Shown in pieces: positions 159 to 20,439 of a stretch of DNA of 21,610 nt. A model generated the notes under the pieces. It had not been told where the DNA came from. It did not search any database and saw nothing but the letters and a program-made list of their open reading frames with translations. The DNA is taken from IMG/VR virus record IMGVR_UViG_3300032002_000001; one strand, given 5' to 3'. Position numbers and translations under genes: made by a program. This DNA is from an uncultured virus (IMG/VR IMGVR_UViG_3300032002_000001) (lineage: Duplodnaviria > Heunggongvirae > Uroviricota > Caudoviricetes). Each line of letters opens with the position of its first letter. Position 1 is the stretch's first letter.

Positions 159-601
159 GAGGCCTCCTCGGTCAACACTTGGATGTTGGCCTCAGCTACA
201 GCAGGACCCAGGCTCTCCTTCCAGGCCTCGAAGGCAGGACGGACGAAGGGACGGGCCTTGGTACCGGGGTGGTTCACCTTCTGCACAACCACCATGTTCC
301 CGCCTACCTTGAACGCCAGTGCCTTCTTGTTCTTGGCTCGGATCTCGTGCGCCCTGGTCCCGAACTCCACGTAGGGCGCGTGCTTCGCAGTCGGCCCGAC
401 GATCACCCGGTTGGGCTCCACCCGGACCCCGAGGGACTCCCTCAGCTCGCCGGTCTTCACCGGTACCCGGATCTCCATCTCGGTAAGCAGGAAGTTGGCA
501 CTCTCCACCATCACCTGCTGGGTGGTCACCTCTGAGCGCTTAGCCGTCATCCGGAGAGCTTCGGCCAGCTTGGAGATGTCAGCGCTGGCTACCTGGGTCA
601 T
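155..601 (-). CDS. HK97 gp10-like neck/tail-completion protein
   Basis: Typical motifs VPVKTGELRESL, APYVEFGT, VNHPGTKARPFVRPA; located in the neck module. Confidence 0.85.
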   Translation of the reverse strand: MTQVASADISKLAEALRMTAKRSEVTTQQVMVESANFLLTEMEIRVPVKTGELRESLGVRVEPNRVIVGPTAKHAPYVEFGTRAHEIRAKNKKALAFKVGGNMVVVQKVNHPGTKARPFVRPAFEAWKESLGPAVAEANIQVLTEEAS

Positions 602-879
602 CGCTCCAACTCCTTGGGGTTAACCGGGACCAGAGCGCTGCCAGTCTTCTTCTGCTTGCTGTGCTTGAACGCCCGGATCGCATTTGGGGTGTCGAACCTA
701 GAGTCAGCCACCCGCGAGAGCTGGCCCACCCGCTTTTTGGCGTACGGGTTCTTCGCGCCGCCAGCAAAGATCTGCGCACCCTTCCCGGAATGGATGCCAG
801 CTCTCATGATCTGTGCATCTCGCTGGGTGAGGTGGATGCCCTTGGAGATGGTGTGCTCAACACCGAACGCGCTTATCAT
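598..879 (-). CDS. Small basic protein with SAFGVEH leader (putative head cargo)
   Basis: Begins MISAFGVEHTISK; ATGA overlaps with both neighbours; Lys/Arg-rich remainder. Confidence 0.7.
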   Translation of the reverse strand: MISAFGVEHTISKGIHLTQRDAQIMRAGIHSGKGAQIFAGGAKNPYAKKRVGQLSRVADSRFDTPNAIRAFKHSKQKKTGSALVPVNPKELER

Positions 880-1289
880 CCGATCCCCGTTACCGAGTAA
901 CGACGGGTGGCCCGGAGCTCACCAGCCTTGGCTGAGGACTGGACCTGGAACCGTTTCCCCACCATCTGCTCATCAGTGTCGGCTGCGGTGATCACGATCT
1001 CGTCGTTCTTCTTCAACAGCGGGGAGTCCCAGGGCAGGGAGATCTGGGTGGTAGAGATGTCCAGTTCAGCGTCAGTGTCCCCAAGTCCGACCACATTGGC
1101 TCCGGAGATCTCCCAGACCCGGCAGACGCCCTCGTAGAGCACCTCACGGGAGCCTGGGGTGTAGACCAGAGTGTCGTCGTCGTGCCCACCCTGAGTGATC
1201 CGTTCCGCCCTGCAGGTATAGCCCATCATCACCCCAGCAGCCCTGCTCCGGACGTACTGGAGAGCGTACGAGGTGATGTAGGTGGTCAC
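876..1289 (-). CDS. Head-to-tail stopper (DUF6093-like)
   Basis: 137-aa beta-rich protein (YEGVCRV, ISLPWDSP, NDEIVIT, GKRFQV, ATRRY) located downstream of the adaptor. Confidence 0.7.
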   Translation of the reverse strand: MTTYITSYALQYVRSRAAGVMMGYTCRAERITQGGHDDDTLVYTPGSREVLYEGVCRVWEISGANVVGLGDTDAELDISTTQISLPWDSPLLKKNDEIVITAADTDEQMVGKRFQVQSSAKAGELRATRRYSVTGIG

Positions 1290-1498
1290 TAGGCGATGAT
1301 CCCGGCAGCCCGCAGCGAGGCCAGCAGCTCGTTCACCTTGGTCGCAGTAGTAGCCGCAGTAGCGCTACCAGGAGTAGGGATGTCAGCCACCGCAGCACCC
1401 TTACCCAGCGGAGCGCTGCTGTCACTCAGAGCCAGGGCGATCTTGTAGGGGACCTCCAGGCTGATCAACTTGTCGAACTTCGCCTTGTCGTATGCCAT
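1289..1498 (-). CDS. Head fibre/decoration-like small protein
   Basis: C-terminal GAAVAD...ATKVNELLASLRAAGIIA matches the common phage head-fibre terminal motif; coupled to both neighbours. Confidence 0.65.
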   Translation of the reverse strand: MAYDKAKFDKLISLEVPYKIALALSDSSAPLGKGAAVADIPTPGSATAATTATKVNELLASLRAAGIIA

Positions 1499-1971
1499 CA
1501 GGTACCAGGCTCCTCGTAGGGGTTGTAGGAATAGAAGTCTCTCGACCCGTACTCCTGGCGTCCAGCTGCTAGATCATCGTGCATCCCCGTACCGAAGTTG
1601 AACGGAGCGATGTTCGGGTCCTGCTCCTCGTAGGGGGTGATGCCGCCCACATCAGGAAATCCCCCTACGAGGAGACTCTTGTGCTGCTGACGCAGGCTGG
1701 CAGCTAGTTCGCGGAACTGCTGTGCGACTACACCCAGACCGATGTTCACTCCATCGGCAGAGATCGACGCTTCCCGTGCGTAACGCGCAGCAAGTACTTC
1801 TGCACAGGCAGCGGCGACATACTCCACACTGCCCAGGCGATCCTTCCACTTCGAGAGCATGAAGTTGATCTCCTCGTCCTGCATGAAGGGTTCTGAGGAG
1901 TTCGTGTCCTGCAGCAAGAACCTGACCTGGTCCTTGTCTGAGGTGGTGGGATCGGCGTAGTTGAAGCTCAC
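1498..1971 (-). CDS. Head-to-tail adaptor
   Basis: DQVRFLLQDT...MQDEEINFML...AAACAEVLAARYAR pattern typical of adaptor proteins; synteny. Confidence 0.8.
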   Translation of the reverse strand: MSFNYADPTTSDKDQVRFLLQDTNSSEPFMQDEEINFMLSKWKDRLGSVEYVAAACAEVLAARYAREASISADGVNIGLGVVAQQFRELAASLRQQHKSLLVGGFPDVGGITPYEEQDPNIAPFNFGTGMHDDLAAGRQEYGSRDFYSYNPYEEPGT

Positions 1972-2615
1972 TTAGCTCCTCCGAAACTCGACCCTCCGAA
2001 GCTAGGCTTGCTCGCTCCGAAGCCAGCACTGGGGGAGGAGGACAGACCAGCACCGGGCTTCTTCTGCATCCCCATCCGCTTCTGGCGACCAGCCATGAAC
2101 GCCTGCATCGGACCCTTGGGCTGCTGAGGCTTAGCGGGGCCACCAGCGAACGTTCCTGCCGCTCCCCCGGGCTTCTGAGCTCCACCCTGGAAGGTTGGCT
2201 TCTGGGGCTTCATCAGGCCAGCAGAGACGCCCTGACCGCCTCCAGTCTGAGCACCACCACCCCGGAAGGCTGAGGAACCAGGGAGACGGAAGCCAGCCTT
2301 GGCCACTGCACTCTTCTTCTTGTAGCCCACGGCTCCGCCAGCACCACCAACGGTGAGACCAGCAGCCCCACCCGCTGCGTACTTGCCTCGGGTGTTCAGA
2401 CCCCCACCGATAGTGTTCGAAGACTTCTTGCCCTTCTTGGCCGCGATGTGTCGAGACTCGGTGGTCTCCTTCAACTTGGCGTTGGTGAAGATCCCATTCG
2501 GACGAGAGGAGACGACTGTGTGGTTGAGGATCGGACCCTTGGCAGAAAACGACTGGCTGACGACTCGCATCCGCTTGGAGACCTCAGTGTGCTCCACCCC
2601 GAAAGCTGAGTACAT
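1968..2615 (-). CDS. Basic Gly-rich protein with SAFGVEH leader (putative head cargo)
   Basis: Begins MYSAFGVEHTEVSK; one glycine-zipper segment (YAAGGAAGLTVGGAGGAVGY), then VAK, then a low-complexity G/Q/K/P tail. Confidence 0.7.
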   Translation of the reverse strand: MYSAFGVEHTEVSKRMRVVSQSFSAKGPILNHTVVSSRPNGIFTNAKLKETTESRHIAAKKGKKSSNTIGGGLNTRGKYAAGGAAGLTVGGAGGAVGYKKKSAVAKAGFRLPGSSAFRGGGAQTGGGQGVSAGLMKPQKPTFQGGAQKPGGAAGTFAGGPAKPQQPKGPMQAFMAGRQKRMGMQKKPGAGLSSSPSAGFGASKPSFGGSSFGGAK

Positions 2616-3031
2616 CAGAACTTCTTCTTCCTGTTCCCAGCTATCGTTCCAGCGCCAACCGCTCCAGCACCACCAATAGCAGCACCGCCAGTAACACCAG
2701 GCCTACGCTGCATCGCAGCGCCTGCGCGGCGCATCGCACCACCCATCCGGACCTGAGTAGCACCAGCAGCCCGAGCTCCAGCGCCCAGAGCGTTAGCCTG
2801 ACGTTGAGCCTTGGGGGTGAAATTCATCCCCTTCGACCCGAACATCCCAGGGGAACCCTTAGCTGCTTGCTGGGTGATTCTGCCTTCCTTCATGGCCTTA
2901 GCGCCTTGTACGCGCAGCTTCTGGCCACCGGTGGACATCCCTCGACCCATAGCGCCACCTAGACGGGAGACAGCGCCCAGTCCCCAAGCCTTGGAGACCT
3001 CACCGTGGTCTACTCCGAATGCGCTCTGCAT
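2615..3031 (-). CDS. Basic Gly/Ala/Met-rich protein with SAFGVDH leader (138 aa)
   Basis: Start reassigned from 3070 to ATG 3031 (MQSAFGVDHGEVSK). This matches the paralog leaders and lies just after the upstream stop at 3036. C-terminal glycine zipper followed by RKKKF. Confidence 0.7.
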   Translation of the reverse strand: MQSAFGVDHGEVSKAWGLGAVSRLGGAMGRGMSTGGQKLRVQGAKAMKEGRITQQAAKGSPGMFGSKGMNFTPKAQRQANALGAGARAAGATQVRMGGAMRRAGAAMQRRPGVTGGAAIGGAGAVGAGTIAGNRKKKF

Positions 3032-3035
3032 CGTC

Positions 3036-3341
3036 CTAGTCCTTCTGTCCAGCCTGCTCCTTGACTTCATCCACGTCGTACTCAGGTGGATTCACCAGGA
3101 TGTCAGGTTCGGTCTCTTCCTGATCTACACCACTGTGGAGACCCAGGCTGTAGTTCCGCTTAGCGACTTCCTCTTCCAGCTTCTTCAGGTCGTACTCCGG
3201 AGGATTCAGGAAGTAGGCGGGTTCGGTCTGACCCTCGTCATCCTCACCGTCGATCCCGAGGGAGAAGGTGTGGCCCACATCCTCGTTCAGGTTCGGCTCG
3301 TAGCGAGGCGGGTTGTTCTCGTTCACGTTCTCGTCACTCAT
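3036..3341 (-). CDS. Acidic hypothetical protein with NPPxY repeats
   Basis: ATGA-coupled to the upstream gene; contains NPPRYE, NPPEYD, NPPEYD. Confidence 0.65.
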   Translation of the reverse strand: MSDENVNENNPPRYEPNLNEDVGHTFSLGIDGEDDEGQTEPAYFLNPPEYDLKKLEEEVAKRNYSLGLHSGVDQEETEPDILVNPPEYDVDEVKEQAGQKD

Positions 3342-4075
3342 GACAGGATTCCCTTTCGGCCCTTACCGGCTTCTTCTGCGGCGAGAACGCGCTCTCGCTC
3401 TTCCTCGGAGATGTCGGAGTCGAGATACTCGTTGACCTCGACCACGCTGTGCTCAGAGGGGTCATAGAGATCTTCCTCGGTGATGGCCCGCTCTTCGTCT
3501 TCCTCTTCCTCGGTGTCCTCCGGATCAGACTCTGGGTCCATCACGGCAGGCTCTGCAGGCTCGTAGGTGTCCTCGTCCCGGACCAGCTCAGCTGGCTCGG
3601 TCTCGCCTACTGGCTCCAGTTCGTCCTCCGGAGGCTCGTTCTCCTCGTTCTCCGCTGCCAGCACCTGCTCGGTGAGGGCAGCCTCGTGAGCCTTGGCGTG
3701 GAGAGCGGCACCCTGATCCGGAGTCTCCTCCCACGGGGTGAAGGTCTCGTGATCAGCGATGGGGTGCTCCAGATCCATCTGCCGAGGCTTGTTGTAGGCA
3801 CTGGATCCACCCAGCACCTTCACGTCCTCGCGCTTGATCAGCCCCAGCTTCCGAGTGATGTCACGCTTCACCCAGACGTGGTGGTACCAGTGACGCGGCA
3901 GATCCTTGCTGTCATCCACCACGGCAACCAGGCGACGGGTGCGGACCAGCATGTCGATCTTGGCTCCGAGGTCCTGATCGAAGTCATCACCCATCTTGTA
4001 GTCCACGCCATCGAAGGTGAAGTCGCGGGCGCAGATGAAGTGGATCGCAGTATTACGGTCCAGCTGGGACGGCAT
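3338..4075 (-). CDS. Capsid-associated hypothetical protein (small N-terminal beta domain, acidic linker, C-terminal helical motif)
   Basis: SD AAGGAG. N-terminal FTFDGVDYKMGDDF and C-terminal SVVEVNEYL...VLAAEEAGKGRKGIL resemble small modules often encoded just after phage capsid genes. Confidence 0.65.
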   Translation of the reverse strand: MPSQLDRNTAIHFICARDFTFDGVDYKMGDDFDQDLGAKIDMLVRTRRLVAVVDDSKDLPRHWYHHVWVKRDITRKLGLIKREDVKVLGGSSAYNKPRQMDLEHPIADHETFTPWEETPDQGAALHAKAHEAALTEQVLAAENEENEPPEDELEPVGETEPAELVRDEDTYEPAEPAVMDPESDPEDTEEEEDEERAITEEDLYDPSEHSVVEVNEYLDSDISEEERERVLAAEEAGKGRKGILS

Positions 4076-4085
4076 CTCTTACTCC

Positions 4086-4607
4086 TTACCGGAAGGGATC
4101 CGGGAGCGGGTTCTTGGTGACACGGGCAGCGCTTTGTCCCGCAGCCTGTCCAGCTCGGTATCCAGCGCTCCCCTTCTTAGTCGCGCCCCCGAAGAGGGTG
4201 GGCATGTGTTCACCCCGGACTCCGATGCCCTGGGACTTCATCGCCTGGTTGTGACCACGCTGGAAGTTCCGGTTGTAGTTCTTCTCGCCCCGGACCTTCA
4301 TCGCACCCTTGACGGCCTTGACCGGGTTTAACGCCTTCTCGATGTCACCGTGGTCTACACCGAATGCAGATACGCTCATATTCTTCTTCACCTTCTTTTT
4401 CCGTGTGGCCTTCGCGCCAGCTACCAAACCACCCATCGCACCGAGTCCACCTGCAGAGGCTGCACCAGCAGCAGCCAGACCCTTGGTCCCAGATGGCCCA
4501 CGACGAATGAGTTTGTACCCACCAGCAGCACCTGCTGCACCACCGGCAGCAGCACCGGCGTAAGCGTTCCGCTGTCGCCGCTGCCAGTAGGTCTTCTTCT
4601 CGGCCAT
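4086..4607 (-). CDS. Two-module basic glycine-zipper protein with internal SAFGVDH leader
   Basis: SD AGGAG. N-terminal module has two Gly/Ala hydrophobic segments; residues 77-91 are MSVSAFGVDHGDIEK. Confidence 0.7.
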   Translation of the reverse strand: MAEKKTYWQRRQRNAYAGAAAGGAAGAAGGYKLIRRGPSGTKGLAAAGAASAGGLGAMGGLVAGAKATRKKKVKKNMSVSAFGVDHGDIEKALNPVKAVKGAMKVRGEKNYNRNFQRGHNQAMKSQGIGVRGEHMPTLFGGATKKGSAGYRAGQAAGQSAARVTKNPLPDPFR

Positions 4608-4669: not shown

Positions 4670-5668
4670 TCAGGCGATGGCGCTCGCCAGGAAGATCCCC
4701 ATGTCAGGTGCAACGACCTTCATGTCGTAGGTCATCTCACCCTCGATGCGGTCTGAGGCGATGTGGTCCATGCGGAACCGCTTCATCCGGATGCCATAGC
4801 TGTTGCCAGCCAGGTAACCGTTCCAGGTGAAGGTATAGCCCGCAGCAGGCGTCATCAGGGACGGAGAGCTCGGTGAGTAGCAGAGCAGAGCCGCCTTGGA
4901 GTTGGTCATGAAGGAGTACGTCGCAGCGGTGTCCTGCTCCCGCAGGTCGTTGCGCTCAGCAACGTCCGTGACGGTGGCGTAGGAGACCAGCACCTTCTCC
5001 ACATCGAAGAGGGTGGCGAGCAGATCCGTGGTGACCACACCACGCTGGGTGTACTTGATCCGGTCGATGATGTCCGGGTGGTTCTTCAACTGAGTGATCG
5101 TCTCAGCTCCGAGCACCAGGGTGTTCGCCTTCCTACCGGACTGACGGACGAACTCCGTCTGCAGGTTGGCGAACTGGACAATCGGGTCGGACGCCGCGTC
5201 GTTCCACTGGAGGAACTGGGTGGAGTTCGGGCCGGAGGCCACACCGGTGTAGTCCTTACCCCAGACACCCGTCTTGAAGTAGGTGTTGTTCCAGTCGAGG
5301 TCGCGCCGGAGCAGCAGGTGGTTGGTGACGTTCAGAGTCGCGTCCTTGTCCAAGCTCCAGTTGGAGTCGGCGTTGGCGCGGATCTGGTCATCGATGTCCT
5401 TGTGCACACCGAACACCTGGGCGAAGTAGGTATCGGTGTCGAACTTCCAACCGGTACCAGCCGTCTCGGTGCCGGGTGCGCGCTTCTGCGCGTCAGTCCG
5501 ACGCCAATCCGACTTGCTGTACTTCCAGTACATATCGGACTGCTTGGAGACCGGGACGCGAGGAAAGATCTTGTCCGCGATGAACGTGGACTTATCCTGC
5601 ATCCAGGCCACCGACACGTTGGTGAGCGGCTGATTTACGTGAAGGTCGCTCTGAGTCGGGTTAGGCAT
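4670..5668 (-). CDS. Major capsid protein (gpE-like, HK97 fold)
   Basis: 332 aa; DLHVNQPLTNVSVAW, IADKIFPRVPV, WNDAASDPI, LKNHPDIIDRIKY; strong SD AGGAGG; follows the scaffold and cement genes. Confidence 0.92.
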   Translation of the reverse strand: MPNPTQSDLHVNQPLTNVSVAWMQDKSTFIADKIFPRVPVSKQSDMYWKYSKSDWRRTDAQKRAPGTETAGTGWKFDTDTYFAQVFGVHKDIDDQIRANADSNWSLDKDATLNVTNHLLLRRDLDWNNTYFKTGVWGKDYTGVASGPNSTQFLQWNDAASDPIVQFANLQTEFVRQSGRKANTLVLGAETITQLKNHPDIIDRIKYTQRGVVTTDLLATLFDVEKVLVSYATVTDVAERNDLREQDTAATYSFMTNSKAALLCYSPSSPSLMTPAAGYTFTWNGYLAGNSYGIRMKRFRMDHIASDRIEGEMTYDMKVVAPDMGIFLASAIA

Positions 5669-5683
5669 TACTCACTCCTCCTA

Positions 5684-6088
5684 TCAGAGCTGCAGCAGCA
5701 GGACGGAGACGAGCTCGCCTGCGTTGGCGGTGGACGTAAGGGCAACTCCGACCGTTGGGCCAGCACCAGCGGTGGCAGCCTGTCCGTCAGCGGAGACCTT
5801 GATGTTGGCACCAGCGGTGATCGCCACATCGGCTACCACCTTGCTGACCCCACGAATCCCCACGGTCGCGGCGTTACCCGCGTTCTGGGGCTTGTTCTGC
5901 AGCACACCGATGACTACGTCATCCGCGTCCGCGATCCCAACCTGGTGAACTCCGGTGACCTTCACGAAGTGGTACTGCTTACCACCGTGAGGGTTAGGGG
6001 CACCGGGGGTACCAGGAGGGCCGGTGTAAACGGCGAGCGAGCTATCCGCGTTCAGCGTGATAGACCGAAGGCTCTCTTCGTAAGCCAC
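5684..6088 (-). CDS. Capsid cement/decoration protein (DUF2190-like)
   Basis: GVLQNKP...ATVGIRGVSKVVA...AITAGA...DGQA...VGVAL...AGELVSVLL pattern; immediately upstream of the capsid gene. Confidence 0.8.
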   Translation of the reverse strand: MAYEESLRSITLNADSSLAVYTGPPGTPGAPNPHGGKQYHFVKVTGVHQVGIADADDVVIGVLQNKPQNAGNAATVGIRGVSKVVADVAITAGANIKVSADGQAATAGAGPTVGVALTSTANAGELVSVLLLQL

Positions 6089-6113: not shown

Positions 6114-6914
6114 TCAGATTCCCCGGCGCTCGGAGAGGTACTCGTCGTAGGCTGCGGGGTTTTCATCGAAGACCTTGGAGATCATGGCCTCGCGGCTACC
6201 CCCGTCGCTCTTCTGGATGTTCTCATTGGCGTAGGCCTCGACCACTGCCATCGGGTCAGCGTTCTCACCCGATCCCTGGTAACCGACCTCTTCGTAGAGG
6301 ATGGTTCCAGCGGTCTCCAGGCACTTAGCGATCACTGCGCAGTCGTCGTAGCTCATCGTCTCGGCCATCCGGTAGAGCACCGGACCGAGCTCCTGAGGAT
6401 CAACCGGGAGGTTGTACTCCTGAGCCTTGGAGACGTACTCGCGGGTCAGGCGGAGATCCCGCTCAGCCTTAGCGATGGACTCGAACTCCTGGTGCTGGTT
6501 CTGCAGCTCTTCGATCCGTCCCAGCGCCTTGGCGATGACCGCGTCACGGTCCTCGTCGCTGAAAGCCTTGGAGAGCTCTTCCATGATCTCCTTGGAGAAG
6601 CTGGACGGCTCTTCCTCGTGGTCCTCGAAGAAAGCGGACTTACCGACAGTCTCCGGCTCACGCTCTTCTGCGCCTTCCTCTTCACCGACGAACTCGTACG
6701 CAGCGCCATCCTGGTCGTACACGATGTCACCTACGTTGAGGTCGTCCTCATTGAGGACTTCACCATCCTCGTTGTAGATATCGAACTCGGGCATTTCATC
6801 CTCCTCAGGAGCCCTCTTAGCGATGGTGATCATCGCGTGCTGATTCGCGCCTTTGTCGACCAGGGAGATCTCATCGATCTCCATGTTCTTCAAGTTCCGG
6901 ATCGGCCGTGGCAT
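6114..6914 (-). CDS. Scaffolding protein with N-terminal prohead-protease fragment (EISLVDKGAN)
   Basis: Acidic, helical protein upstream of cement/capsid. Residues 8-33 match the L.E[IV]SLV..[PG]AN..A strand of HK97-family proteases. SD GAGGTG. Confidence 0.75.
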   Translation of the reverse strand: MPRPIRNLKNMEIDEISLVDKGANQHAMITIAKRAPEEDEMPEFDIYNEDGEVLNEDDLNVGDIVYDQDGAAYEFVGEEEGAEEREPETVGKSAFFEDHEEEPSSFSKEIMEELSKAFSDEDRDAVIAKALGRIEELQNQHQEFESIAKAERDLRLTREYVSKAQEYNLPVDPQELGPVLYRMAETMSYDDCAVIAKCLETAGTILYEEVGYQGSGENADPMAVVEAYANENIQKSDGGSREAMISKVFDENPAAYDEYLSERRGI

Positions 6915-6951: not shown

Positions 6952-8094
6952 TCAGTCTTCGTCAACATCGAAGAGTTTGGAGATCTCCTCCAGGTAGTTC
7001 TCCGTCTTCCCGATCTCTCCAGTGGTGCCCAAGCTCTTGTAGACACCCCAGCTCTCCGACTTCCGCTTCCGCTCCAGAGCCATCGAGCCAGCAGCCAGAC
7101 CTGCTCCAGCTGCGCCCAACTTTCCGGCAGCGCGGAAGTTCTTGTTGGCACCGGTGTGCAGAGCCTTGTAGGCCTTCTTCTGGCTCTTAGCCTTGTCCCC
7201 GGCCTTCTTCTGCTTGATCCCCCGAGCGGTCTTCACACCAGCAGCCAGAGCAGTCGCCCCTGAAGCACCAGCTGCTGCTCCCGGGTAGATGTTGTTCCGG
7301 CGCTGACGGTTCCGCTCTGAGTCGAAGTTCCGAGCAGTAGGAGTCCAGTTCTTCCTCACCGGTCGCTTCCTGCTCTCCGCACCGGTGTAGGCAGCGAAGT
7401 TGAACGCGCTCGCACCACCGATACCAGCAGAGGTAGCCAGCACTGGCACTGTGGCAGCCTTGATCCGGTCGCGCTCTGGATCCTTGGGCTTAGGCGCAGC
7501 CACCCTGTTCTTCAGCGCCGGGATCTTCCGTAGTGCGGTACGCCCAGGGCGAGAGGCTGCCATCGTGCCCCCGAGCGCTGCGAGCCCGAGCGCACCGGTG
7601 ACCTGTGAAGAGCGACCCTGGATCTTCTTCCGACGCCGGATCTCGGTATCGGACATGGTCCGTGCCTTGCCCACAGCTTCCTTCTTCCGGTCGATCTTTC
7701 GGTCGATCTTCTTCTTCGCATGGCGTCCAGCCGCCAGGTTCCCAGCCAGGGTGCCAGCCGTTGCCGTGCCATACACCGCCCCGATGGTGCCCAAGCCAGC
7801 AGGGCTAGGCTTCACCTTCCGGCTGACCTGGAACCCGGTCTTCAGTGCACTCCCGGTGCTCTTCAGCTTCCCATGCCCACCCACGTGAGATTCAGTACCT
7901 GGGATCTTCACCTTCTGCCGGGAGTGGCCGTACTGGATCTTCCCCGCCGCGATCCCCGGCTTCGCCTTCCGAGCAGCCCGAGACGCGCCATAGCCAGCAG
8001 CGGCTCCACCGAGTAGACCACCATAGGCTCCGGCGTCAGCAGTCTCTCTGATCTTCCGGTTCTCCTGTGGGGTGTACTTCCGACGATCTGCCAT
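6952..8094 (-). CDS. Basic Gly/Ala-rich modular protein (putative cleaved head cargo polyprotein)
   Basis: Coupled to the upstream gene (TGATG); six glycine-zipper hydrophobic segments flanked by K/R clusters; short acidic C-terminus. Confidence 0.7.
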   Translation of the reverse strand: MADRRKYTPQENRKIRETADAGAYGGLLGGAAAGYGASRAARKAKPGIAAGKIQYGHSRQKVKIPGTESHVGGHGKLKSTGSALKTGFQVSRKVKPSPAGLGTIGAVYGTATAGTLAGNLAAGRHAKKKIDRKIDRKKEAVGKARTMSDTEIRRRKKIQGRSSQVTGALGLAALGGTMAASRPGRTALRKIPALKNRVAAPKPKDPERDRIKAATVPVLATSAGIGGASAFNFAAYTGAESRKRPVRKNWTPTARNFDSERNRQRRNNIYPGAAAGASGATALAAGVKTARGIKQKKAGDKAKSQKKAYKALHTGANKNFRAAGKLGAAGAGLAAGSMALERKRKSESWGVYKSLGTTGEIGKTENYLEEISKLFDVDED

Positions 8095-9527
8095 CAGTCT
8101 CGGACCCCACGGCCGTGGATGGAGAATCCAGTCCGCTCCCCGCTCTTGACCTTGGCCCAGAGCTCAGGGTCGTTCACCTGGTAGCCCACCCACCAGCCAG
8201 TGGGAGTGTCCTCAGGGAGACCCAACGCAGATTTCTTCTCCGGGGTCACCACGAACGATTCGATCATGTGGGACTTAGCAATGGGCGTCCCCATCACCTC
8301 ATCGCGCAGGTGCATGTCCCCGCCCTTGCGGGACTTGTGGACGTACTCGTAGGCGCTCTTCTCCACCTCATCGATGGCGATGTAGTCACCCTGGAGATCC
8401 ACCACCGGCTCGCCGTTCATCTCCACGATGGAGGCCCAGCCGAAGACCTGCTGCTTGTCTGTGTCGACCTTGGAGAACTCACCCTCCCAGCGGACATCGA
8501 CATCACTCTTCTTGAAGGTGGCGTAACCTGCTGCCCCAGCAGCCAGAGCGCCACCAGCAGCGATCAGGTGACCCCGCTTCACATCCTTGGCCCGACCGCG
8601 CTTCAAGCCATCCTTCTTCTCGGCGGCAGCCTGGTACTGGTCAAATCCCTTGGGATCACGGTAAGGGCCTGGGCGTCCAGTCACGTCCTTCTTCACGCGG
8701 TGCTCGACTACGGTCTTCTTCCGGTACTTCCCTCGGGCCTTCTCCCCGAGTCCGTAGCCACCAGCAGCGGCACCACCGACACCAGCGGCACCGACTGCTC
8801 GGATCGCCCGTCGAGTAGTCCGGGAGGTCTTGGTAGCCTCAGTGGCAAGGGTGTTCAGATTGTGAGTCGCAAATCTAGCGTTGGAGGCGGTTTGCGCCAC
8901 GTCCTGTTTGATGCGACGAAGCGAACCCACCTTCGGTGGACGACGGATCTTCGAGATGTTCTTAGTCTCTACCTTGTTGGGGAGCTTCTTGAACTTTCCC
9001 TTGGAGTACTCCGCTCCCTTGCCCGCCGCACGCGCGGCCGTGGTGATCGAGGCCTGAGTTAGCTGGCCCTTGGTCGGGACCTTCTTCGCCTGTTCCTCGA
9101 TCTCCGCGATGCTCTTGTGGATGTCCTTCTTCTTCTTCTCGTCCTTCTTCGCGGAGCGAGCCAGCACCCGGTTAGCCACCAGGTCACCACCGAGGTTGGT
9201 GCCCTGCAGAGCCAGACCAGCGCCAGCACCAGCAACCGCAGGGATGGCCCACTTGGTCTTCGGAATCTTGACCTTGCCACCCTCCTTCTTAGCCCGCTTC
9301 AGGCTCCGGTAGGAGTCACCGAGCGCAGCGGTACCCGCAGCGATACCGATGGCATTTGAAGCCAGAGCCACCCGGGCCTGGTTCCGGTTCCGCTTCTCTC
9401 GCGCAGACAGGTCAGCCCCATCCGGGTTGGCCTTGTGGATCAGGTCGTCCGCCCCACCCCCGTAGAGCAGGTCAGCTACCTCACGGAACACCTGGTCCGT
9501 GGCATACCGCTTCGCTACCTCACTCAT
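8094..9527 (-). CDS. XkdF-like prohead serine protease (aa ~341-477) fused to basic glycine-zipper modules
   Basis: VFGWAS, VDLQGD, GGDMH (H406), MIESFV, GWWVGYQV, WAKVKSGERTGFSIHG (S469). Confidence 0.85.
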   Translation of the reverse strand: MSEVAKRYATDQVFREVADLLYGGGADDLIHKANPDGADLSAREKRNRNQARVALASNAIGIAAGTAALGDSYRSLKRAKKEGGKVKIPKTKWAIPAVAGAGAGLALQGTNLGGDLVANRVLARSAKKDEKKKKDIHKSIAEIEEQAKKVPTKGQLTQASITTAARAAGKGAEYSKGKFKKLPNKVETKNISKIRRPPKVGSLRRIKQDVAQTASNARFATHNLNTLATEATKTSRTTRRAIRAVGAAGVGGAAAGGYGLGEKARGKYRKKTVVEHRVKKDVTGRPGPYRDPKGFDQYQAAAEKKDGLKRGRAKDVKRGHLIAAGGALAAGAAGYATFKKSDVDVRWEGEFSKVDTDKQQVFGWASIVEMNGEPVVDLQGDYIAIDEVEKSAYEYVHKSRKGGDMHLRDEVMGTPIAKSHMIESFVVTPEKKSALGLPEDTPTGWWVGYQVNDPELWAKVKSGERTGFSIHGRGVRD

Positions 9528-9553: not shown

Positions 9554-11581
9554 TCAGATGGAATCATCACCGAAGTCGAGTTCTTCCATCTCCACATCCG
9601 GCATCATGGACCGAATCTCAATCGGCGGGCCGTATTGGTGGTGGGCGTAGTTCTCGTGCTCAGTGAGATAGGTACCGTTGGTAGTCCAGGTCTCGTAGGC
9701 GTAGGTGGTCGGATAACTCTCCTGCACCGTCCTGCCCAGTGAAGAGTCGTGACCCTCTTCCAGCTTCAGAATGGTGATCTTGAAGTCGTTGGGTTCCAAG
9801 CCCCACTCGTCGGCAGCCTGATCGTAGGTGATCATCGGGCCATCGATAGGTGTGCCATCCTCATCTTCCCAGTTCACCTTCATATGCGGGCTACGGGTGA
9901 CGTAACCTTCCGGGTCATTCCCCTGAGAGGCAATAGTCTCAACGACTGCCCGGATATCGTCATCGTCCAGACGTGCGGTGAGCTGAGCACCATCCCGGGT
10001 GACCATGGTGACCTCGCCATTCAGCTCCCAGGAGATGTGTCGGATGTGCTCCTTGATCAGATCCTCGAAGGCCTCGGTGGCTTCCAGCGCAGCCTTGGAC
10101 TCATCGGGAGAGAACTCGGTGGTATGGGTCATCTCCACCTTCATGTCTGGGTCGAACTCCGTGGGTTCCACCACCGCGTAGACCGGACGCTCCATCTTGA
10201 TCACCGGCTGCCGCCAGACCCGACGACGGTGCTTCTTCGGAGCACGCTGAGCCAGTAGCTCCACGATCTGCTGCTGCAGCCTGAGCTTCTGCGCGGCAGG
10301 CATCTTGTATGTCACCTGCTGCATCTGAGCCTTCTGCTGACCCAGCTGCACCTTCTCCGAGACAGCACTAGGCATCACTACGCGCTGAGGCATCCGGACC
10401 CGCTCAGGCATCTGCACTCGCTCCGGCATCTGCACCCGCTCGGTAGTCTCGGTGGGCATCACCACCCGCTCCACTGTTTCCACCGCTTCCTTCACAGGCT
10501 CGATCACCTGAGCAGGCTCGATCACCGCACGACGCTCCCGCTCGATCACCGGCCTAGTTCGAGGAGCCGTAGCCTGTGCCCGCTGCTTCGCGGTGAATCG
10601 ACCACCTCGCCCGCGTGGGTGCTCCTCGTTGAACTCCTGGAGCTCTGATCCACTCAGGTCCTTCTGGAAGTACTCGATGGACATCCGACCTGGATCCACC
10701 ACCCGGACCTCACACCGGCAGTTCGGATGCACGCCTGGGACGTAGATCTCGATCCCGTTGGGCAGCTTGAACCGCTCAGAGACCAATACCTTCTTCCCGT
10801 GCAGAGGAGCGCACTGAGGACAGGTTCGTTCATCCCGAGCAGTCAGCCAGACCTTCTGCGCCTCCTGGGAGAGGTTGCCCTTCTCCTGTAGCCAGGTCCA
10901 GGCAGTCTGCTGCGCCTGCTGGTTGAGGTTGTGCACCTCCTGCTTAGCGAAGCCCTTGAACCGCTGGTTGAGAGATCGGTTGATGTACTCCAGCGCCTGA
11001 GCCTTGCGAGGGCGAGGGGTAGCGGTAGTCACCTTCTGCGGAGCCGCCAGAGCCACGTAGGAGTTCATCTGTCGCGGGGTGAGCCCGTAGGCATCCAGCA
11101 CCTTCTCCGCCGCTGCCTTGGGTGGGATCTTCCGGTTCAGGTACAGGTGGAAGCCCTGGACCAGCGCCTCCTTGGAGGTTTCGTTGAAGTAGGTCCCCAT
11201 CCGAGAGGCGTGCTGCTCAGCTAGGGCGTAGAGGGTGGACATCGGGATGTCCTGTGCCCGGGAGTTCCGGTAGGCCCGGACGTAGGCCTGAATCGCCGCA
11301 GGACCCACCAGCTTGTTGAATCGGCCCAGGTAGATCTCCGAGGCAGCATCCACCAGCCGTACCAGAGATGCACCAGTGACCTCCCTCTGCTTCAGCAGAT
11401 CGTGTCGGACCCGGTTGATCACCAGCATCCGATAGGACTGCAGAGCAGCCTCGATCTGCTCCTGCGGTGAACCGATACTGCGTTGGTCTAGCTGCCGCAG
11501 CGCCCCAGGCTCGATGTCAGAGAAGAGCAGCGAGACATAGGGATTCGGCTTAGCTGAGGATGGATCCGCCACCCTGGTCAC
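9554..11581 (-). CDS. MuF-like (SPP1 gp7-type) minor head protein with long C-terminal extension
   Basis: KVWLTARDERTCPQCAPLHG...HPNCRC at ~10705-10856. Start could instead be GTG 11572. Confidence 0.85.
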   Translation of the reverse strand: MTRVADPSSAKPNPYVSLLFSDIEPGALRQLDQRSIGSPQEQIEAALQSYRMLVINRVRHDLLKQREVTGASLVRLVDAASEIYLGRFNKLVGPAAIQAYVRAYRNSRAQDIPMSTLYALAEQHASRMGTYFNETSKEALVQGFHLYLNRKIPPKAAAEKVLDAYGLTPRQMNSYVALAAPQKVTTATPRPRKAQALEYINRSLNQRFKGFAKQEVHNLNQQAQQTAWTWLQEKGNLSQEAQKVWLTARDERTCPQCAPLHGKKVLVSERFKLPNGIEIYVPGVHPNCRCEVRVVDPGRMSIEYFQKDLSGSELQEFNEEHPRGRGGRFTAKQRAQATAPRTRPVIERERRAVIEPAQVIEPVKEAVETVERVVMPTETTERVQMPERVQMPERVRMPQRVVMPSAVSEKVQLGQQKAQMQQVTYKMPAAQKLRLQQQIVELLAQRAPKKHRRRVWRQPVIKMERPVYAVVEPTEFDPDMKVEMTHTTEFSPDESKAALEATEAFEDLIKEHIRHISWELNGEVTMVTRDGAQLTARLDDDDIRAVVETIASQGNDPEGYVTRSPHMKVNWEDEDGTPIDGPMITYDQAADEWGLEPNDFKITILKLEEGHDSSLGRTVQESYPTTYAYETWTTNGTYLTEHENYAHHQYGPPIEIRSMMPDVEMEELDFGDDSI
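10370..10471 (-). repeat. Imperfect 18-bp coding repeats, [EQ]RV[QVR]MP x5
   Basis: ERVVMP-TETT-ERVQMP-ERVQMP-ERVRMP-QRVVMP in the MuF linker. Confidence 0.85.
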
Positions 11582-14500
11582 CCTTCTTCTTCTGCTCTAG
11601 CTCACCGAAGGGTGCCTTCTCGTGCATCCTGCGGAACACGTCGTTGACCGCCTGGAAGTCCGACTGGTTCAGCGCGAGGAAATGATCCACGTCCTCAACC
11701 CCGCGTACGTTGTCCTTCTCAGCCCGGACTGCGGCGGCGAAGTTCTGGATCTGCTTCACCAGGTTGTCGTCGGTAGTCTCGTCCTTCAGCCAACGAGCCG
11801 CCCTGTCCGCGTTGTCCGCGTAGTTCTGCATCCGACGCTTGTGTTCCGACTGATTCCCTTCCGACCGATCATAGGATCGCTGCGCAGCCGGGGCAGGGAC
11901 GACGATGTCCCCGGCACCCCGGTCCTCGTCACTGACTCCCTGGTTCAGAGCCCGGACCTCATGCAGTGCTCGGAGCCTAGCCTCGATCAGCTCAGGGTTC
12001 CGGAACAGGTGATCCAGGGCGGGAGCCCCTCGCTTCACCTTCAGGTCCTTGACCGCCTCCAGCCGCATATCAGGATCCAGCGGACCACCAGCAGCCTGGA
12101 TGTAGCCGTTCAGATTCAGAGCAGCGTTGAACTCCTGCTCCAGTTCTGCATCCACCATCCTCGATAGCGGGCGGAGGACAGTGATCCCACCCAAGGTCTG
12201 GGCGTCCAGTTGCGCCAGGCGCTTAGCCCGACCAGCGTCATCCTCAGGAGCGTCAGGGAACTTGTAGGGCTTGGAACCCCAGATCCCGATCAGGTCATCG
12301 GTGTACTCCTCCTGACCCAGCTTTCCGGAGGCAGCCTTGTAGGCCACTCCAGCCTCACCCAGATCGACGCCAGCCTCTTCTAGGCGATAGAACCACTTGT
12401 CGAACTTCTGCTGCTTCGCCGGGTCTCGGAGATCGGCAGCGGTGTAGTTCCGGGCGGCACGGTCATCAGGTGACGCACCCTCCATCTCCACACCGGCCAT
12501 CCGCTCCTGGATACCTCGGGCAGCCTGGGCGTACTCGATCCGCTGACGCACCTCAGCGGCAGCATCGGCAGGAGTGGTCTTCTTCTCCTCGGTCTCCGCC
12601 GCCTCTTCGGCCTCCTCATCACTGGGAGCCCGGGTGGGCTTGCGGTGAATCTGGTAGTCCGCATCCGCCGCTGAGAACTTGTTGCCCTGATGGGAGAACG
12701 GCGAGGTGGCTGCGTTGTTGAACAGACCAGCGGCCGCATAGGCGGGACGATTCCGACCCGGCTCCACGTAACCCCGGTCAATGTTCGGAGTCACACCCTC
12801 CGGGTCAAGGGTGACCGAGTTCTTCCGGCTCTTGATGTAGTAAGGGAACTGCTCCTGTAGCGCCCGGAGGGCAGCGTCATAGCCCACACCGTTCAGCCGG
12901 AACTTCGTCTCCTTCTGCTCCGCCATGTGCTTCAGAGCGTCATCGATGTACTCCTCAGCGTTCTCATCGGTACCCAGGGCACGCGCTGCAGCCATGTGCT
13001 CGGCGTACTGCTGCAACTCTGGGGTCAGCTCCGGGGAGGACTTGAAGTCTTCGATCCGCTCCTGGACCTTGGCGTTGATCTCCATCGGACGGAGCCCCAG
13101 TCCCTGGTACTCCTCCATCACCGTGGCGCGGATCGCATCCTTGGTAGCCGGGTCCAGGTCCCTGCGGTCGATCTGCTGAGACTGCACCGCGTCCAGCAGT
13201 TGTGCGTAGCGGCGAGTCATCCGCTTCGCCTTGTCGTTGTGCCGACGCCCGCCCCGGAAGTCCTCCTCGAACTCCACGGTGAAGGTGCCAGAGCGAGAGA
13301 CCACGGTGAGCTGGCGAGCACCCGACATCAGTCCGGTGTAGATGTCTTCAGTGGTAGGACCACCCACAGAGCGGGTGCGGATGTACTCCCCACCCTTCAG
13401 CCCCTTCAGGTGCTTCAGGTTGAAGGGCAGATAGTGATCATCACCGTAACCCACAGCCTGAGAAACGATCCGTCCCTTGCTGTCCAGGATCACACCCTCT
13501 GAGGGCGGAGTGTTACCCGAAGCCAGCTGCAGGTTGTACAGCCCCTTCCTAGGCATCCGGTTCTCCAGGTGAGCAGCGATCACCCGACGACCGTTAGCCC
13601 GCTCCTCCCAGGTAGGTACCCGACGCTTGGCGTTCTCCCGGACCGCAGCCATCTGGCTGGGAGCAGGAGTCCTGGGGTTCTTCAGATTCGCCCGACGATC
13701 CTCCGGCACATTGCCGTAGGGGTCTGAGTCGATGGCCAGCTTGGTGTCGTTCACCGCAGCCTCGTACGCCCGGACCATCGGTCGGTCCGGAGTCTTCTCC
13801 GTACCCCGGTAGCGGTAGGCAGCCCGACGTGTAGGCGGGCCGAACACTGCCTCTGCCTCCGCCCCGTGGTCACCTACGAACTGACCGAACCGAGCTGCAA
13901 GGGCCACCTTGGATCCCGGAGGAGCAGCAGCCCCAAGCAGTTCGGATCCAGACTTGATCCTGCGGTAGGTCTGCGCGTTGGTGTTGTACCGGTCGTTCTC
14001 CTCGATCCGGCCCCAGTCGGTGGCGAAGGAGTTGAACCCCTGGTCGACCTGGTTCAGTGCCCGGACCCGTCCAGCGTTGGCCTGAGAGGACTGTGCCCCC
14101 AGTGCACTAGCCAGACCGAAGTAGGCCCCACCCAGAGTGAGCGCAGTAGGCCGAGCGTCCAGTCCCACCAGATCTTCGTACTTCGCATCCCACTTCAGGT
14201 CTGCGGGGCGAGTGGAGGTAGCCGTGGTGGTGTACACCTGCTTGGTGCGCTTGTCCCGAATGTGGGCGATCACGTCGTGGTCACCAGGGTTTCCAGAGTG
14301 ATGCACAGTGCTCAGGAAGTTGGACAGCTGCCGGTACTGGTCCTGGTAGGCAGCCAACTCCTCGTCGCTCAGCCGCTCCCTACGCTGACCGCGATTCTTA
14401 GCTTCCTCCCCCGGCAGACCCATCGCGTGGGCCGTGCGAGTGTGCAGGGGCTTCTTCTGGTTGGTAGTGACCTTGGTCCGGAATCGACCAGTAGAGGGGT

Positions 14501-18842: not shown

Positions 18843-19205
18843 CTAGAACTTGACGCCGCCAGCGAGAAGCAGCACCAGGAGCACGATGCCGACGATGGCG
18901 AGGACCAAGATGATCACTCCACCTGCGCTGTCGTACCGGTACACACCGTTCTCGTCCTGCGGACGACGTTCCAATGGGTTCCCGAACATTCCGTTGTCAC
19001 CTCCTCTGGTGGGCACGTTCTGTTGGGCGGTGATGCCGGTGTAGGTCCAGACAAAGGCCAGGATCGCCACCGTGACCGTGAACCACCCCGGTACCTCTGG
19101 CTGGGTAGCGAAGTAGATAGCGGCCGCACCGGTGATCCCTGTAGTGATCCATTGGATCAGGTAGAGCACCTTTCGGGCCTGTGGGTAGTCGTCCAGGGGG
19201 TTCAC
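18843..19205 (-). CDS. Holin-like membrane protein (3 predicted TM)
   Basis: Directly after the endolysin (GTGA overlap); two N-terminal hydrophobic helices and one C-terminal helix. Confidence 0.7.
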   Translation of the reverse strand: MNPLDDYPQARKVLYLIQWITTGITGAAAIYFATQPEVPGWFTVTVAILAFVWTYTGITAQQNVPTRGGDNGMFGNPLERRPQDENGVYRYDSAGGVIILVLAIVGIVLLVLLLAGGVKF

Positions 19206-20014: not shown

Positions 20015-20028
20015 ATGTCCTCCTACCT

Positions 20029-20439
20029 TCAGGATCCGTACTCTGGCGAGCCAGCTGCCCTCGGGCCTCTGGCGACGATCCGCTCTAGGTCTCGGATCCT
20101 CTTGATGTGCTCCTCCCGCTCAGTCCGGAGACGAGCAGCTTCTACTCTCGCGTCGTGTAACTCCCTACGCAGCAGCCGAGCCTCTTCGACGCACTCGTCC
20201 ATCTCCTCCTTCATCAGCTTGACCTTGGCGCGCTCCGATGCGATCTCCGCTGCATTCTCCTCGCGCTCCTGAGCCAGCTCCTTGCGTAAAGGGTCCACGA
20301 GCTCGCGGGCGGCGGCTGTGATCACTGCCGTAGCATCGGCACCAACCTTCCGGCGTTGCGCGATGGCGTTGACGATGGCTACCGCAGCACCTCCAGTGAG
20401 AAGGGCAGCGGCCAGCATGGCGATGGTCTCGGGTGTCAC
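20029..20439 (-). CDS. Membrane-anchored coiled-coil protein of the lysis cassette
   Basis: N-terminal hydrophobic helix (IAMLAAALLTGGAAVAIVNAIA) followed by a long E/R-rich coiled coil. Confidence 0.7.
   Translation of the reverse strand: MTPETIAMLAAALLTGGAAVAIVNAIAQRRKVGADATAVITAAARELVDPLRKELAQEREENAAEIASERAKVKLMKEEMDECVEEARLLRRELHDARVEAARLRTEREEHIKRIRDLERIVARGPRAAGSPEYGS

What the first reader, a model, noticed from the sequence alone, without database searches (positions are those of the whole stretch)
598..4607. Family of cargo genes sharing a SAFGV[ED]H...[IV][SE]K leader: candidate capsid-targeting sequence
Seen: four otherwise unrelated proteins share MISAFGVEHT-ISK (879-841), MYSAFGVEHTEVSK (2615-2574), MQSAFGVDHGEVSK (3031-2990) and internal MSVSAFGVDHGDIEK (4379-4335). 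Codons are synonymously diverged (Ser AGC/TCA/AGC/TCT, Gly GGT/GGG/GGA/GGT, Val GTT/GTG/GTA/GTA), so conservation is at the peptide level. The payloads are divergent and strongly cationic, and the genes sit tightly among conserved capsid/neck genes. Known: T4 internal proteins carry a short N-terminal capsid-targeting sequence removed by the prohead protease. Inference: this is an independent address-tag-plus-cleavage system that loads variable basic proteins into the head, possibly for ejection into the host. I do not recognise the motif as a described family.
Basis: partly seen in the sequence, partly recalled or inferred. Interest (0 to 1): 0.9.

Follow-up and report, generated by a model that had tools for sequence, protein, structure and literature searches.

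The report
Detachable tag on basic phage proteins
An uncultured group of roughly 80-kb phages puts the same seven-residue peptide, fenced off by a lysine site, on four to eight small, very basic proteins encoded among their head genes, most likely as a clip-off label for loading them into the capsid, but no experiment has tested this.

Summary
Four window ORFs share SAFGV[ED]H followed by [IV][SE]K, at the stated coordinates. The codons differ synonymously and the proteins have no other detectable similarity. The window is the head module of an uncultured phage: TerL, Mu-type portal, MuF-like protein, XkdF-type protease, scaffold, major capsid protein (MCP) and neck genes.

The tag is a family trait of one clade whose MCPs are 59-83% identical to the window's. 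Five genomes at least 99% complete carry 4-8 tags each, against 0 for a reversed-pattern control. In fetched relatives, 126 unique N-tagged proteins all have basic bodies (median pI 11.6) and fall into 62-74 unrelated sequence clusters.

The tag also occurs at C-termini and at internal joints. A hydrophobic-x-Lys site always lies on the cargo side, so the layout is that of an excisable label.

The same DNA pattern in cellular genomes gave only single, never N-terminal, chance hits. No Pfam or PHROG family, no cultured phage and no paper searched holds the motif.

Loading into the capsid and cleavage by the protease remain inferences.

This scan noted the same tag at least six times before, on other DNA, with the same reading.

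Verdict: a real feature and a new variant of the T4-type capsid-targeting idea. Interest 0.6.

The parts
598..879 (-). 93-aa basic protein (pI 10.8) with an N-terminal tag, MISAFGVEHT-ISK (879-841). It occupies the slot between the DUF6093 gene and the gp10-like gene.
1968..2615 (-). 215-aa basic Gly/Ala-rich protein (pI 11.4) with an N-terminal tag, MYSAFGVEHTEVSK (2615-2574).
   Evidence: No Pfam or PHROG family.
2615..3031 (-). 138-aa basic Gly/Ala-rich protein (pI 12.0) with an N-terminal tag, MQSAFGVDHGEVSK (3031-2990). The ORF is open up to 3070, but 3031 is the likely start.
4086..4607 (-). 173-aa basic protein with an internal 'joint' tag (4379-4335). The tag is flanked by KKKVKK-N on one side and IEK-A on the other. 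In relatives the part after the tag is a separate N-tagged protein.
6952..8094 (-). 380-aa basic Gly/Ala-rich protein between protease and scaffold. It is the ortholog of a class that carries the tag at its C-terminus in 11 of 19 relatives. Here the tag position reads SLGTTGE, so the tag has been lost.
8094..9527 (-). 477-aa protein with a basic N-terminal part and an XkdF-type protease domain (aa 350-475, nt 8103-8480). It is the candidate enzyme for the Lys sites. Its own N-terminal leader (9527-9432) ends in LIHK. It carries no tag.
6114..6914 (-). Acidic scaffold-like protein (pI 4.2). Its disordered linker holds VGK-SAFFEDH...SFSK (about 6647-6591). VGK is present in all 25 aligned homologs and VGK-SAFF in 19 of them, so this is probably a protease site.
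4670..5668 (-). Major capsid protein (phrog_1005). It marks the clade that carries the tag.
3338..4075 (-). Conserved acidic 245-aa protein interleaved with the tagged genes: a small beta domain, an acidic linker and a two-helix C-terminus. Its role is unknown.

Best explanation
SAFG[VI][DE]H is a short linear address tag. While the prohead is being built, the tag would dock small, very basic, Gly/Ala-rich proteins onto an internal component, either the acidic scaffold core or the inner face of the capsid protein. The XkdF-type prohead protease would then cut at the hydrophobic-x-Lys site that always lies between tag and cargo. The 9-20-residue tag peptide would leave with the scaffold fragments, and the basic proteins would stay inside with the DNA. 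There they could neutralise DNA charge and possibly be ejected.

Shown here: the tag, its flanking Lys site, its position-independence, its restriction to basic head-operon proteins of one phage clade, and selection at the peptide level.

Inferred: docking, the identity of the receptor, cleavage by this protease, and the fate of the cargo.
For: 1. The motif is real and not chance. It gives 4 matches in the window against 0 in 100 shuffles. Five genomes at least 99% complete (76-83 kb) carry 8, 4, 6, 4 and 7 tags, all on the coding strand of the structural region, and the reversed pattern gives 0.

2. Control in cellular genomes. The same DNA pattern gave 120 stretches, all single-copy. Of these, 87 encode the peptide in frame, 0 of 87 are N-terminal, and 6 of 87 are followed by hydrophobic-x-K. 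A viral scan that did not require ATG gave 145 unique in-frame instances. Of those, 91 have Met two residues upstream and all 91 are followed by hydrophobic-x-K.

3. Selection acts on the peptide. Among 126 unique N-tagged ORFs, Ser uses AGC 61, TCA 19, AGT 19, TCG 13, TCC 10 and TCT 3; one ORF has Thr (ACC) at that position. Gly uses all four codons.

4. The cut-site logic holds.
- Hydrophobic-x-K occurs in residues 10-19 of 99% of tagged proteins, against 5% of 1,143 control 10-aa windows taken from the same proteins.
- [IVF][SEA]K occurs in 91% against 0.4%.
- The spacer between His and this site varies from 0 to 9 residues, so tag and site are read separately.
- C-terminal tags lack a downstream site. 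In 17 of 19 of them a K or R lies 0-5 residues upstream, for example VSK-SAFGVDHE-stop.
- Internal tags have a site on both sides, as in window 4379-4335 and in L321, L425, L313 and L330.

5. The same kind of site ends the conserved N-terminal leader of the protease protein. It also sits in the disordered linker of the scaffold (VGK; pLDDT below 50).

6. Cargo. All 125 bodies scored have pI above 9 (median 11.6), with K+R 19%, D+E 3.6% and G+A 32%. They fall into 62-74 BLAST clusters, 48-58 of them singletons.

7. Context. Tagged genes occupy fixed slots among head genes: protease|tag|scaffold, MCP|tag|acidic protein|tag tag|p157, and DUF6093|tag|gp10-like. The loci share conserved MCP, protease and portal genes (median identities to the window 80%, 68% and 66%), while cargo bodies have no homologs beyond a near-identical contig.

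8. Precedent. T4 internal proteins carry a 10-20-residue N-terminal capsid targeting sequence that binds the prohead core and is removed by the prohead protease (passages read in PMC7411985 and PMC3012670). P1 DarB has an N-terminal capsid signal (passages read in PMC9024508).
Against: There is no proteomic, structural or genetic evidence that any tagged protein is in a virion or prohead, and no member of the clade is cultured. The best capsid-protein identity to any isolated phage is 43.8%.

The specificity of XkdF-type proteases is unknown to me. I found no solved structure and no paper on it.

The window's protease and its 380-aa basic protein carry no tag. The tag therefore cannot be the only route into the head, if these proteins go there at all.

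All cargos are basic and the scaffold is acidic, so plain electrostatics might suffice for loading. That leaves the tag's role open.
Confidence: 0.55

Rival explanations
1. The tag is a docking element (exosite) for the protease, not for the capsid. Its purpose would be controlled processing of basic, possibly harmful proteins. Loading itself would happen through charge attraction to the acidic scaffold.
For: The Lys site is always beside the tag. Every cargo is basic and the scaffold has pI 4.2. The scaffold carries a partial tag, SAFF, directly after a conserved VGK site, as if S-A-F were read together with the site.
Against: Removing 14 residues from an N-terminus has no evident benefit unless the peptide did something beforehand. 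The 0-9-residue variable spacer fits a separate binding event, though it does not say to what. C-terminal tags are cut away as tiny peptides, which looks like removal of a used label.
Confidence: 0.2
2. The tag has nothing to do with head assembly. It would be a signal read by host machinery (a membrane-insertion, export or degradation signal) on small glycine-zipper membrane proteins involved in lysis, exclusion or entry.
For: Of 126 cargos, 52 contain GxxxGxxxG and 67 have an uncharged stretch of 18 residues or more. Three have sub-threshold Pfam glycine-zipper hits, and one relative is named YcfJ by JGI.
Against: The genes sit inside the head and neck operon in fixed slots, not in the lysis cassette, which lies at 19202-20882 in the window. 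Hydropathy is low: only 2% reach a 19-residue Kyte-Doolittle mean above 1.6. Known signal peptides and terminal degrons, as far as I recall them, work from one end of a protein only, whereas this tag occurs at the N-terminus, the C-terminus and internally. In the 120 stretches listed from cellular genomes, no multi-copy or N-terminal instance appeared.
Confidence: 0.12
3. The released SAFGV[DE]H peptide is itself the product. It could be a protease cofactor, as I recall for adenovirus pVIc, or a signalling peptide.
For: The peptide is far more conserved than anything it is attached to. Every configuration would release a 9-20-residue peptide containing it.
Against: Four to eight copies per genome on different carriers are not needed to make a cofactor. 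I have no evidence of export. The adenovirus analogy is recalled, not tested.
Confidence: 0.05
4. It is a DNA-level repeat (a recombination site or regulatory element) that happens to be translated, or simply chance.
For: None beyond the repetition itself.
Against: Third codon positions vary freely, and Ser switches between the AGY and TCN codon families. There were 0 matches in 100 shuffles and 0 with the reversed pattern in six viral records.
Confidence: 0.01

Closest known systems
Capsid targeting sequence (CTS) of phage T4 internal proteins IPI-III and Alt (passages read in PMC7411985 and PMC3012670)
   Same: A short shared peptide sits on otherwise unrelated, mostly basic head proteins. 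It lies next to a prohead-protease site. It is thought to bind the scaffolding core and to be removed at maturation.
   Different: There is no sequence similarity. The T4 CTS is N-terminal only and ends in an L/I-x-E type site cut by gp21. Here the tag works at the N-terminus, the C-terminus and internal joints, the site is hydrophobic-x-Lys, the protease is XkdF-type (Peptidase_S78_2), and the phage is about 80 kb with a lambda-E-like capsid protein. Function is proven in T4 and unproven here.
N-terminal capsid signal of phage P1 DarB (passages read in PMC9024508)
   Same: An N-terminal stretch of about 30 residues is sufficient to carry a reporter into the capsid.
   Different: It is a single protein, not a shared multi-gene tag. 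In the passages I read, no shared motif and no flanking cut site are described.
Propeptides of giant-phage head and ejection proteins (SPN3US; passages read in PMC7411985)
   Same: Several head proteins lose a propeptide to the prohead protease, and a targeting role is proposed.
   Different: Those propeptides are long (111-130 residues) and are cut after an AXE-type motif by a T4-like protease. They are not a short conserved tag.
Encapsulin cargo-loading peptides (recalled, not checked here)
   Same: A short linear peptide on cargo binds the inside of an HK97-fold shell.
   Different: As I recall, they are usually C-terminal, not cleaved, and have a different consensus. The receptor here is unknown.
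Adenovirus core protein precursors pVII and pX and the pVIc peptide (recalled, not checked here)
   Same: Very basic DNA-associated core proteins are trimmed by the maturation protease inside the capsid.
   Different: That is a eukaryotic virus with a different protease and motif, and it has no shared address tag.

Membership tests
T4-type capsid targeting sequence system | A short peptide shared by otherwise unrelated head-module proteins | tested here: met
   There are 4 in the window, 126 unique N-tagged ORFs in relatives, and 4-8 per complete genome.
T4-type capsid targeting sequence system | The tag is N-terminal and ends in the gp21 motif (L/I-x-E) | tested here: not met
   The site here is [IVF][SEA]K, present in 91%. 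The tag also occurs at C-termini and internally.
T4-type capsid targeting sequence system | A T4 gp21-type prohead protease | tested here: not met
   The only protease domain found in the window is Pfam Peptidase_S78_2 (XkdF), at 66 bits.
T4-type capsid targeting sequence system | The tag is sufficient and necessary for encapsidation and is removed in the prohead | not testable with these tools
   This needs virion or prohead proteomics or reporter fusions, and no cultured member exists.
Encapsulin cargo-loading peptide | An uncleaved peptide that binds an encapsulin shell protein encoded nearby | tested here: not met
   The shell gene is a phage major capsid protein within a full head, portal and terminase module. 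A conserved cut site flanks the tag.
Any curated protein family (Pfam-A, PHROGs) | A match at or above the family threshold | tested here: not met
   None of the 4 window cargos has a Pfam hit. In PHROGs three have no hit and the 173-aa protein has only a weak one (phrog_30212, unknown function, E 0.004). Of 94 proteins scanned (5 from the window, 89 from relatives), 93 have no Pfam family at the gathering score; the exception is a partial GNAT match.

The most novel reading that the evidence does not exclude
This clade uses a modular, position-independent addressing code for the prohead interior. A seven-residue tag, usable at either end of a protein or at a joint between two proteins, is excised at flanking Lys sites by an XkdF-type protease and loads a fast-evolving set of protamine-like, glycine-zipper proteins that travel with the DNA. 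The protease itself may enter by a second code: in some relatives its leader, once cut, would expose a near copy of the capsid protein's N-terminus. If so, any protein could be packaged into these heads by adding seven residues and a Lys site at whichever end tolerates it.
Probability: 0.35. Interest if true: 0.75.

Novelty: new variant of a known kind. Interest (0 to 1): 0.6.

Why it matters
Capsid-targeting tags have been shown experimentally in very few phages (T4 and P1, from the passages I read). They are the basis of protein-packaging and delivery tools.

A second, unrelated tag would show that clip-off address labels evolved more than once in tailed phages. This one is shorter, works at either terminus and pairs with a different protease family. 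It would also give a first substrate motif for the uncharacterised XkdF protease family.

It also points to a class of extremely basic internal proteins in mid-sized phages. These proteins may matter for DNA condensation or for entry.

The limit is that everything rests on metagenomic sequence.

Tried and rejected
1. Complex prediction of capsid protein (alignment A5) + scaffold residues 104-266 (A3) + 40-residue tagged N-terminus (A1). The tool's verdict was 'no answer': score 0.22, mark 0.32, and the controls were not run. This says nothing for or against binding. The receptor is still unknown.

2. My idea that the protease itself carries the tag was wrong. None of the complete protease ORFs from relatives listed is tagged. 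The tagged ORFs I had seen beside protease fragments are the next gene downstream.

3. My idea that the scaffold's SAFFEDH is a full internal tag does not hold. Only 1 of 33 scaffold ORFs, the window's near-twin, matches SAFxx[ED]H. What is conserved is VGK-SAFF. The segment is disordered in the AlphaFold2 model and does not dock onto the helical domain.

4. tblastn of the 93-aa protein against 50,697 phage records found no match even at E of 10 or below. The three distant cultured relatives I fetched (Kharcho, ValentiniPuff, Kovu) have 0 tags under a relaxed pattern.

5. The scan of cellular genomes found only chance singletons in the 120 rows shown.

6. The window's own assembly is not held, so the rest of its genome was not examined.

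7. A profile search of 5.8 billion proteins gave 60 hits at E of 1 or below. All came from metagenome assemblies and none from a cultured phage or isolate. None has a precomputed Pfam domain. The only names given are 'hypothetical protein', one 'YcfJ' and one 'MAG: Desulfurellales bacterium' record. Only the 7,997 candidates sharing the most words were scored, so 60 is a lower bound.

8. A PDB sequence search with the protease profile gave nothing usable (best E 0.92).

9. A fold search with the acidic 245-aa protein gave no match at E of 0.001 or below, only weak SH3-like and B. subtilis YqbF rows.

10. Literature. No paper in the library holds the five motif strings I searched. Searches on capsid targeting sequence/prohead protease/actinobacteriophage, on XkdF/cleavage site and on targeting signal/HK97 returned nothing on this tag. 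Subscription-only papers are not covered.
Full report
THE WINDOW

All long ORFs lie on the minus strand and form a phage head module. In gene order they are:
- large terminase, 17010-18521
- Mu-type portal, 15098-16984 (Pfam Portal_Mu, 127 bits)
- a 1183-aa protein with no family, 11550-15101
- a MuF-like protein, 9554-11581
- a 477-aa protein whose C-terminal 126 residues are an XkdF-type protease domain, 8094-9527 (Peptidase_S78_2, 66 bits)
- a 380-aa basic protein, 6952-8094
- an acidic scaffold-like protein, 6114-6914
- a cement or decoration-like protein, 5684-6088
- the major capsid protein (MCP), 4670-5668 (phrog_1005, E 2e-85)
- the region of the finding
- neck genes: phrog_1732 at 1498-1971, DUF6093 at 876-1289, and an HK97-gp10-like gene at 155-601

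G+C is about 0.61 throughout. There is no tRNA gene. An Amidase_2 lysin (19202-20014) lies upstream of the terminase, beside an ORF with a hydrophobic, membrane-protein-like sequence (20436-20882; my reading).

THE OBSERVATION

One looser match, SAFFEDH, lies in the scaffold. The DNA pattern for AFGV[DE]H matches 4 times, against 0 in each of 100 shuffles. Apart from the tag, the four proteins have no significant pairwise similarity (E of 0.28 or higher). Their pI values are 10.8-12.0.

A FAMILY TRAIT OF ONE UNCULTURED CLADE

The window's own assembly is not held. The nearest record, an 8.8-kb viral contig, has the same four tags.

It yielded 145 unique in-frame instances:
- 91 have Met two residues upstream, and all 91 are followed by hydrophobic-x-K
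- 20 have a Met within six residues
- 13 lie within 25 residues of a stop codon
- 21 are internal; several of these are chance hits in unrelated contigs

The same DNA pattern in 596 Gb of cellular genomes served as a control. Of these, 87 are in frame, none is N-terminal, and 6 are followed by hydrophobic-x-K.

tblastn of the window's proteins against the 307 fetched viral loci, many of which overlap on the same contigs, shows the tag-bearing loci belong to one lineage. Median identity to the window is 80% for MCP, 68% for protease, 66% for portal and 62% for scaffold. The three N-tagged window cargos (93, 215 and 138/151 aa) find only the near-identical contig; the 173-aa protein matched 28 loci over short stretches around the tag.

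In the second scan, the loci split by number of tag copies and by presence of the clade's core genes as follows:
- two or more tags, with core genes: 44 loci
- two or more tags, no core genes: 11 loci, all but two of them about 1 kb or shorter
- one tag, with core genes: 31 loci
- one tag, no core genes: 50 loci
- no in-frame instance and no core genes: 6 loci

Five genomes at least 99% complete (76-83 kb, one with terminal repeats) hold 8, 4, 6, 4 and 7 tags, all on one strand. The reversed pattern gives 0.

No cultured phage is close. The best MCP identity among 50,697 phage records is 43.8%, and three of those distant relatives have no tag. A profile of 88 tagged N-termini searched against 5.8 billion proteins returned 60 hits at E of 1 or below. 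All came from metagenome assemblies and none has a precomputed Pfam domain. Only the best 7,997 word-sharing candidates were scored.

ANATOMY OF THE TAG

In 158 unique N-terminal cases from the first scan, the consensus is M-x-S-A-F-G-[V145/I13]-[D96/E62]-H-[G129]. A spacer of 0-9 residues (mode 2) follows, then [VI][SEA]K, then usually A, G or S. In all, 157 of 158 have hydrophobic-x-K.

In 126 unique complete ORFs, hydrophobic-x-K occurs in residues 10-19 of 99%, against 5% of 1,143 control windows from the same proteins. [IVF][SEA]K occurs in 91% against 0.4%. Ser is encoded by both codon families and Gly by all four codons, so the constraint acts on the peptide.

The tag is not tied to the N-terminus:
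- Nineteen unique cases lie at a C-terminus, where the protein ends 1-19 residues after His. One of these looks like a chance hit outside the clade.
- C-terminal tags have no downstream Lys site. In 17 of 19 a K or R lies 0-5 residues upstream, for example KKKKVSK-SAFGVDHE-stop or ...PYAKRDxx-SAFGVDH.
- Internal tags have a site on each side. The window's 173-aa protein is one of these (KKKVKK-NMSV-SAFGVDHGD-IEK-A). The part after its tag is a separate N-tagged protein in other contigs.

The Lys site is therefore always on the cargo side. This is the layout of a label meant to be removed.

The same kind of site ends a conserved leader at the N-terminus of every complete protease ORF I listed (...LL[FY]GGGxDxL[IV][SA]K). 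It also occurs as VGK in the scaffold of all 25 aligned homologs, 19 of which continue SAFF. In an AlphaFold2 model (mean pLDDT 65), that scaffold segment lies in a stretch with pLDDT below 50, ahead of a helical C-terminal half.

THE CARGO

All 125 bodies scored have pI above 9 (median 11.6). K+R is 19%, D+E 3.6% and G+A 32%, and the median length is 109 residues.

They form 62-74 BLAST clusters, with 48-58 singletons. Of 126 cargos, 52 contain GxxxGxxxG, yet only 2% reach classical transmembrane hydropathy. Of 94 proteins scanned against Pfam, 93 match no family at the gathering score. One 118-aa cargo has a partial GNAT match.

Tagged genes occupy fixed slots: between protease and scaffold, between MCP and a conserved acidic protein, between that protein and phrog_1732, between DUF6093 and the gp10-like gene, and, in some genomes, upstream of the terminase or portal. 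The window fills the second, third and fourth slots. Its first-slot protein (380 aa) aligns with a class that carries the tag at its C-terminus in 11 of 19 relatives, but here the tag position reads SLGTTGE. More distant clade members often have only the first-slot tag, so that slot may be the ancestral one.

INTERPRETATION

The best-supported reading is an excisable address tag. The peptide would dock basic proteins to something inside the assembling prohead. The XkdF-type protease would cut at the Lys site, and the cargo would stay with the DNA.

This matches how the T4 capsid targeting sequence is described. [quoted passage not shown] P1 DarB has a comparable signal (PMC9024508).

It is not the same family. 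The sequence, the cut motif, the protease family and the phage type all differ, and T4's tag is N-terminal only.

What I could not show is loading, cleavage or ejection. One complex prediction gave no verdict and is recorded only under things tried. The rival readings are a protease-docking signal with charge-driven loading, a host-read signal on glycine-zipper membrane proteins, an active released peptide, and a DNA-level repeat. I put these at 0.2, 0.12, 0.05 and 0.01.

PRIOR NOTES OF THIS SCAN

Look-ups made after I had recorded my own reading show the same tag was reported at least six times on other DNA, with the same interpretation. Those are unchecked AI notes and not independent evidence. 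One of them pointed me to PMC3012670, which I then read in passages.

NOVELTY AND SCORE

I found the motif in no paper and no curated family. The principle is known; the implementation is new. It is position-independent, uses Lys sites and an XkdF protease, and carries exclusively basic cargo. I rate it a new variant of a known kind, with interest 0.6.

Noticed in passing
window 9432-9527 (minus strand); L297, L292, L300, L339 and L330 protease ORFs: The protease protein has its own conserved N-terminal leader ending in h[SA]K. In 5 of 19 unique clade ORFs the residues right after that site read like the capsid protein's N-terminus: P-S-Q-S-D-V-H-V-N-S-P against MCP M-P-N-P-T-Q-S-D-L-H-V-N-x-P-L. 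The MCP version is nearly invariant in the clade and conserved in the wider MCP family. The protease may be loaded by mimicking the capsid N-arm. The window's copy is degenerate (LIHK-ANPDGADLS).
   Followed up: partly
window 6591-6647 (minus strand): The scaffold linker holds VGK-SAFFEDH-EEEPS-SFSK. VGK is present in all 25 aligned homologs and VGK-SAFF in 19 of them. The segment is disordered in the AlphaFold2 model. It is probably the site where the protease cuts the scaffold in two.
   Followed up: yes
window 6114-6914 and 8094-9527: The scaffold starts with an EISLVDKGANQ module. In PHROG head-maturation-protease families this module lies in the same polypeptide as the protease domain (phrog_3017, phrog_80, phrog_3244). 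Here a 380-aa basic gene separates protease and scaffold, as if a fused protease-scaffold gene had been split by an insertion.
   Followed up: no
L079:2375-2728 (minus strand), protein P0211: One tagged 118-aa cargo in a relative matches Pfam GNAT Acetyltransf_1 above the gathering score (28.3 against 20.7 bits), but only over profile positions 48-88. It is the only possible enzymatic cargo among the 94 proteins scanned.
   Followed up: partly
window 3338-4075 and 3036-3341: Two strongly acidic proteins (pI 4.3 and 4.1) are interleaved with the basic tagged genes. The 245-aa one is conserved across the clade: a small beta domain (pLDDT 80-92), an acidic disordered linker, and a two-helix C-terminus ending RKGIL. 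Fold search gave no significant match, only weak SH3-like and B. subtilis YqbF rows. It could be a partner or chaperone of the basic proteins.
   Followed up: partly
window 11550-15101: A 1183-aa protein lies between the portal and the MuF-like gene. It has no Pfam or PHROG match but is conserved in the clade (33 loci, median 40% identity). It is a candidate large internal or ejected protein.
   Followed up: no
window 6952-8094: The 380-aa protein has lost the C-terminal tag that 11 of 19 orthologs carry. Other orthologs show variant tags (SAFGINHA, SAFGIVHD). Tags are therefore gained and lost within the clade.
   Followed up: yes
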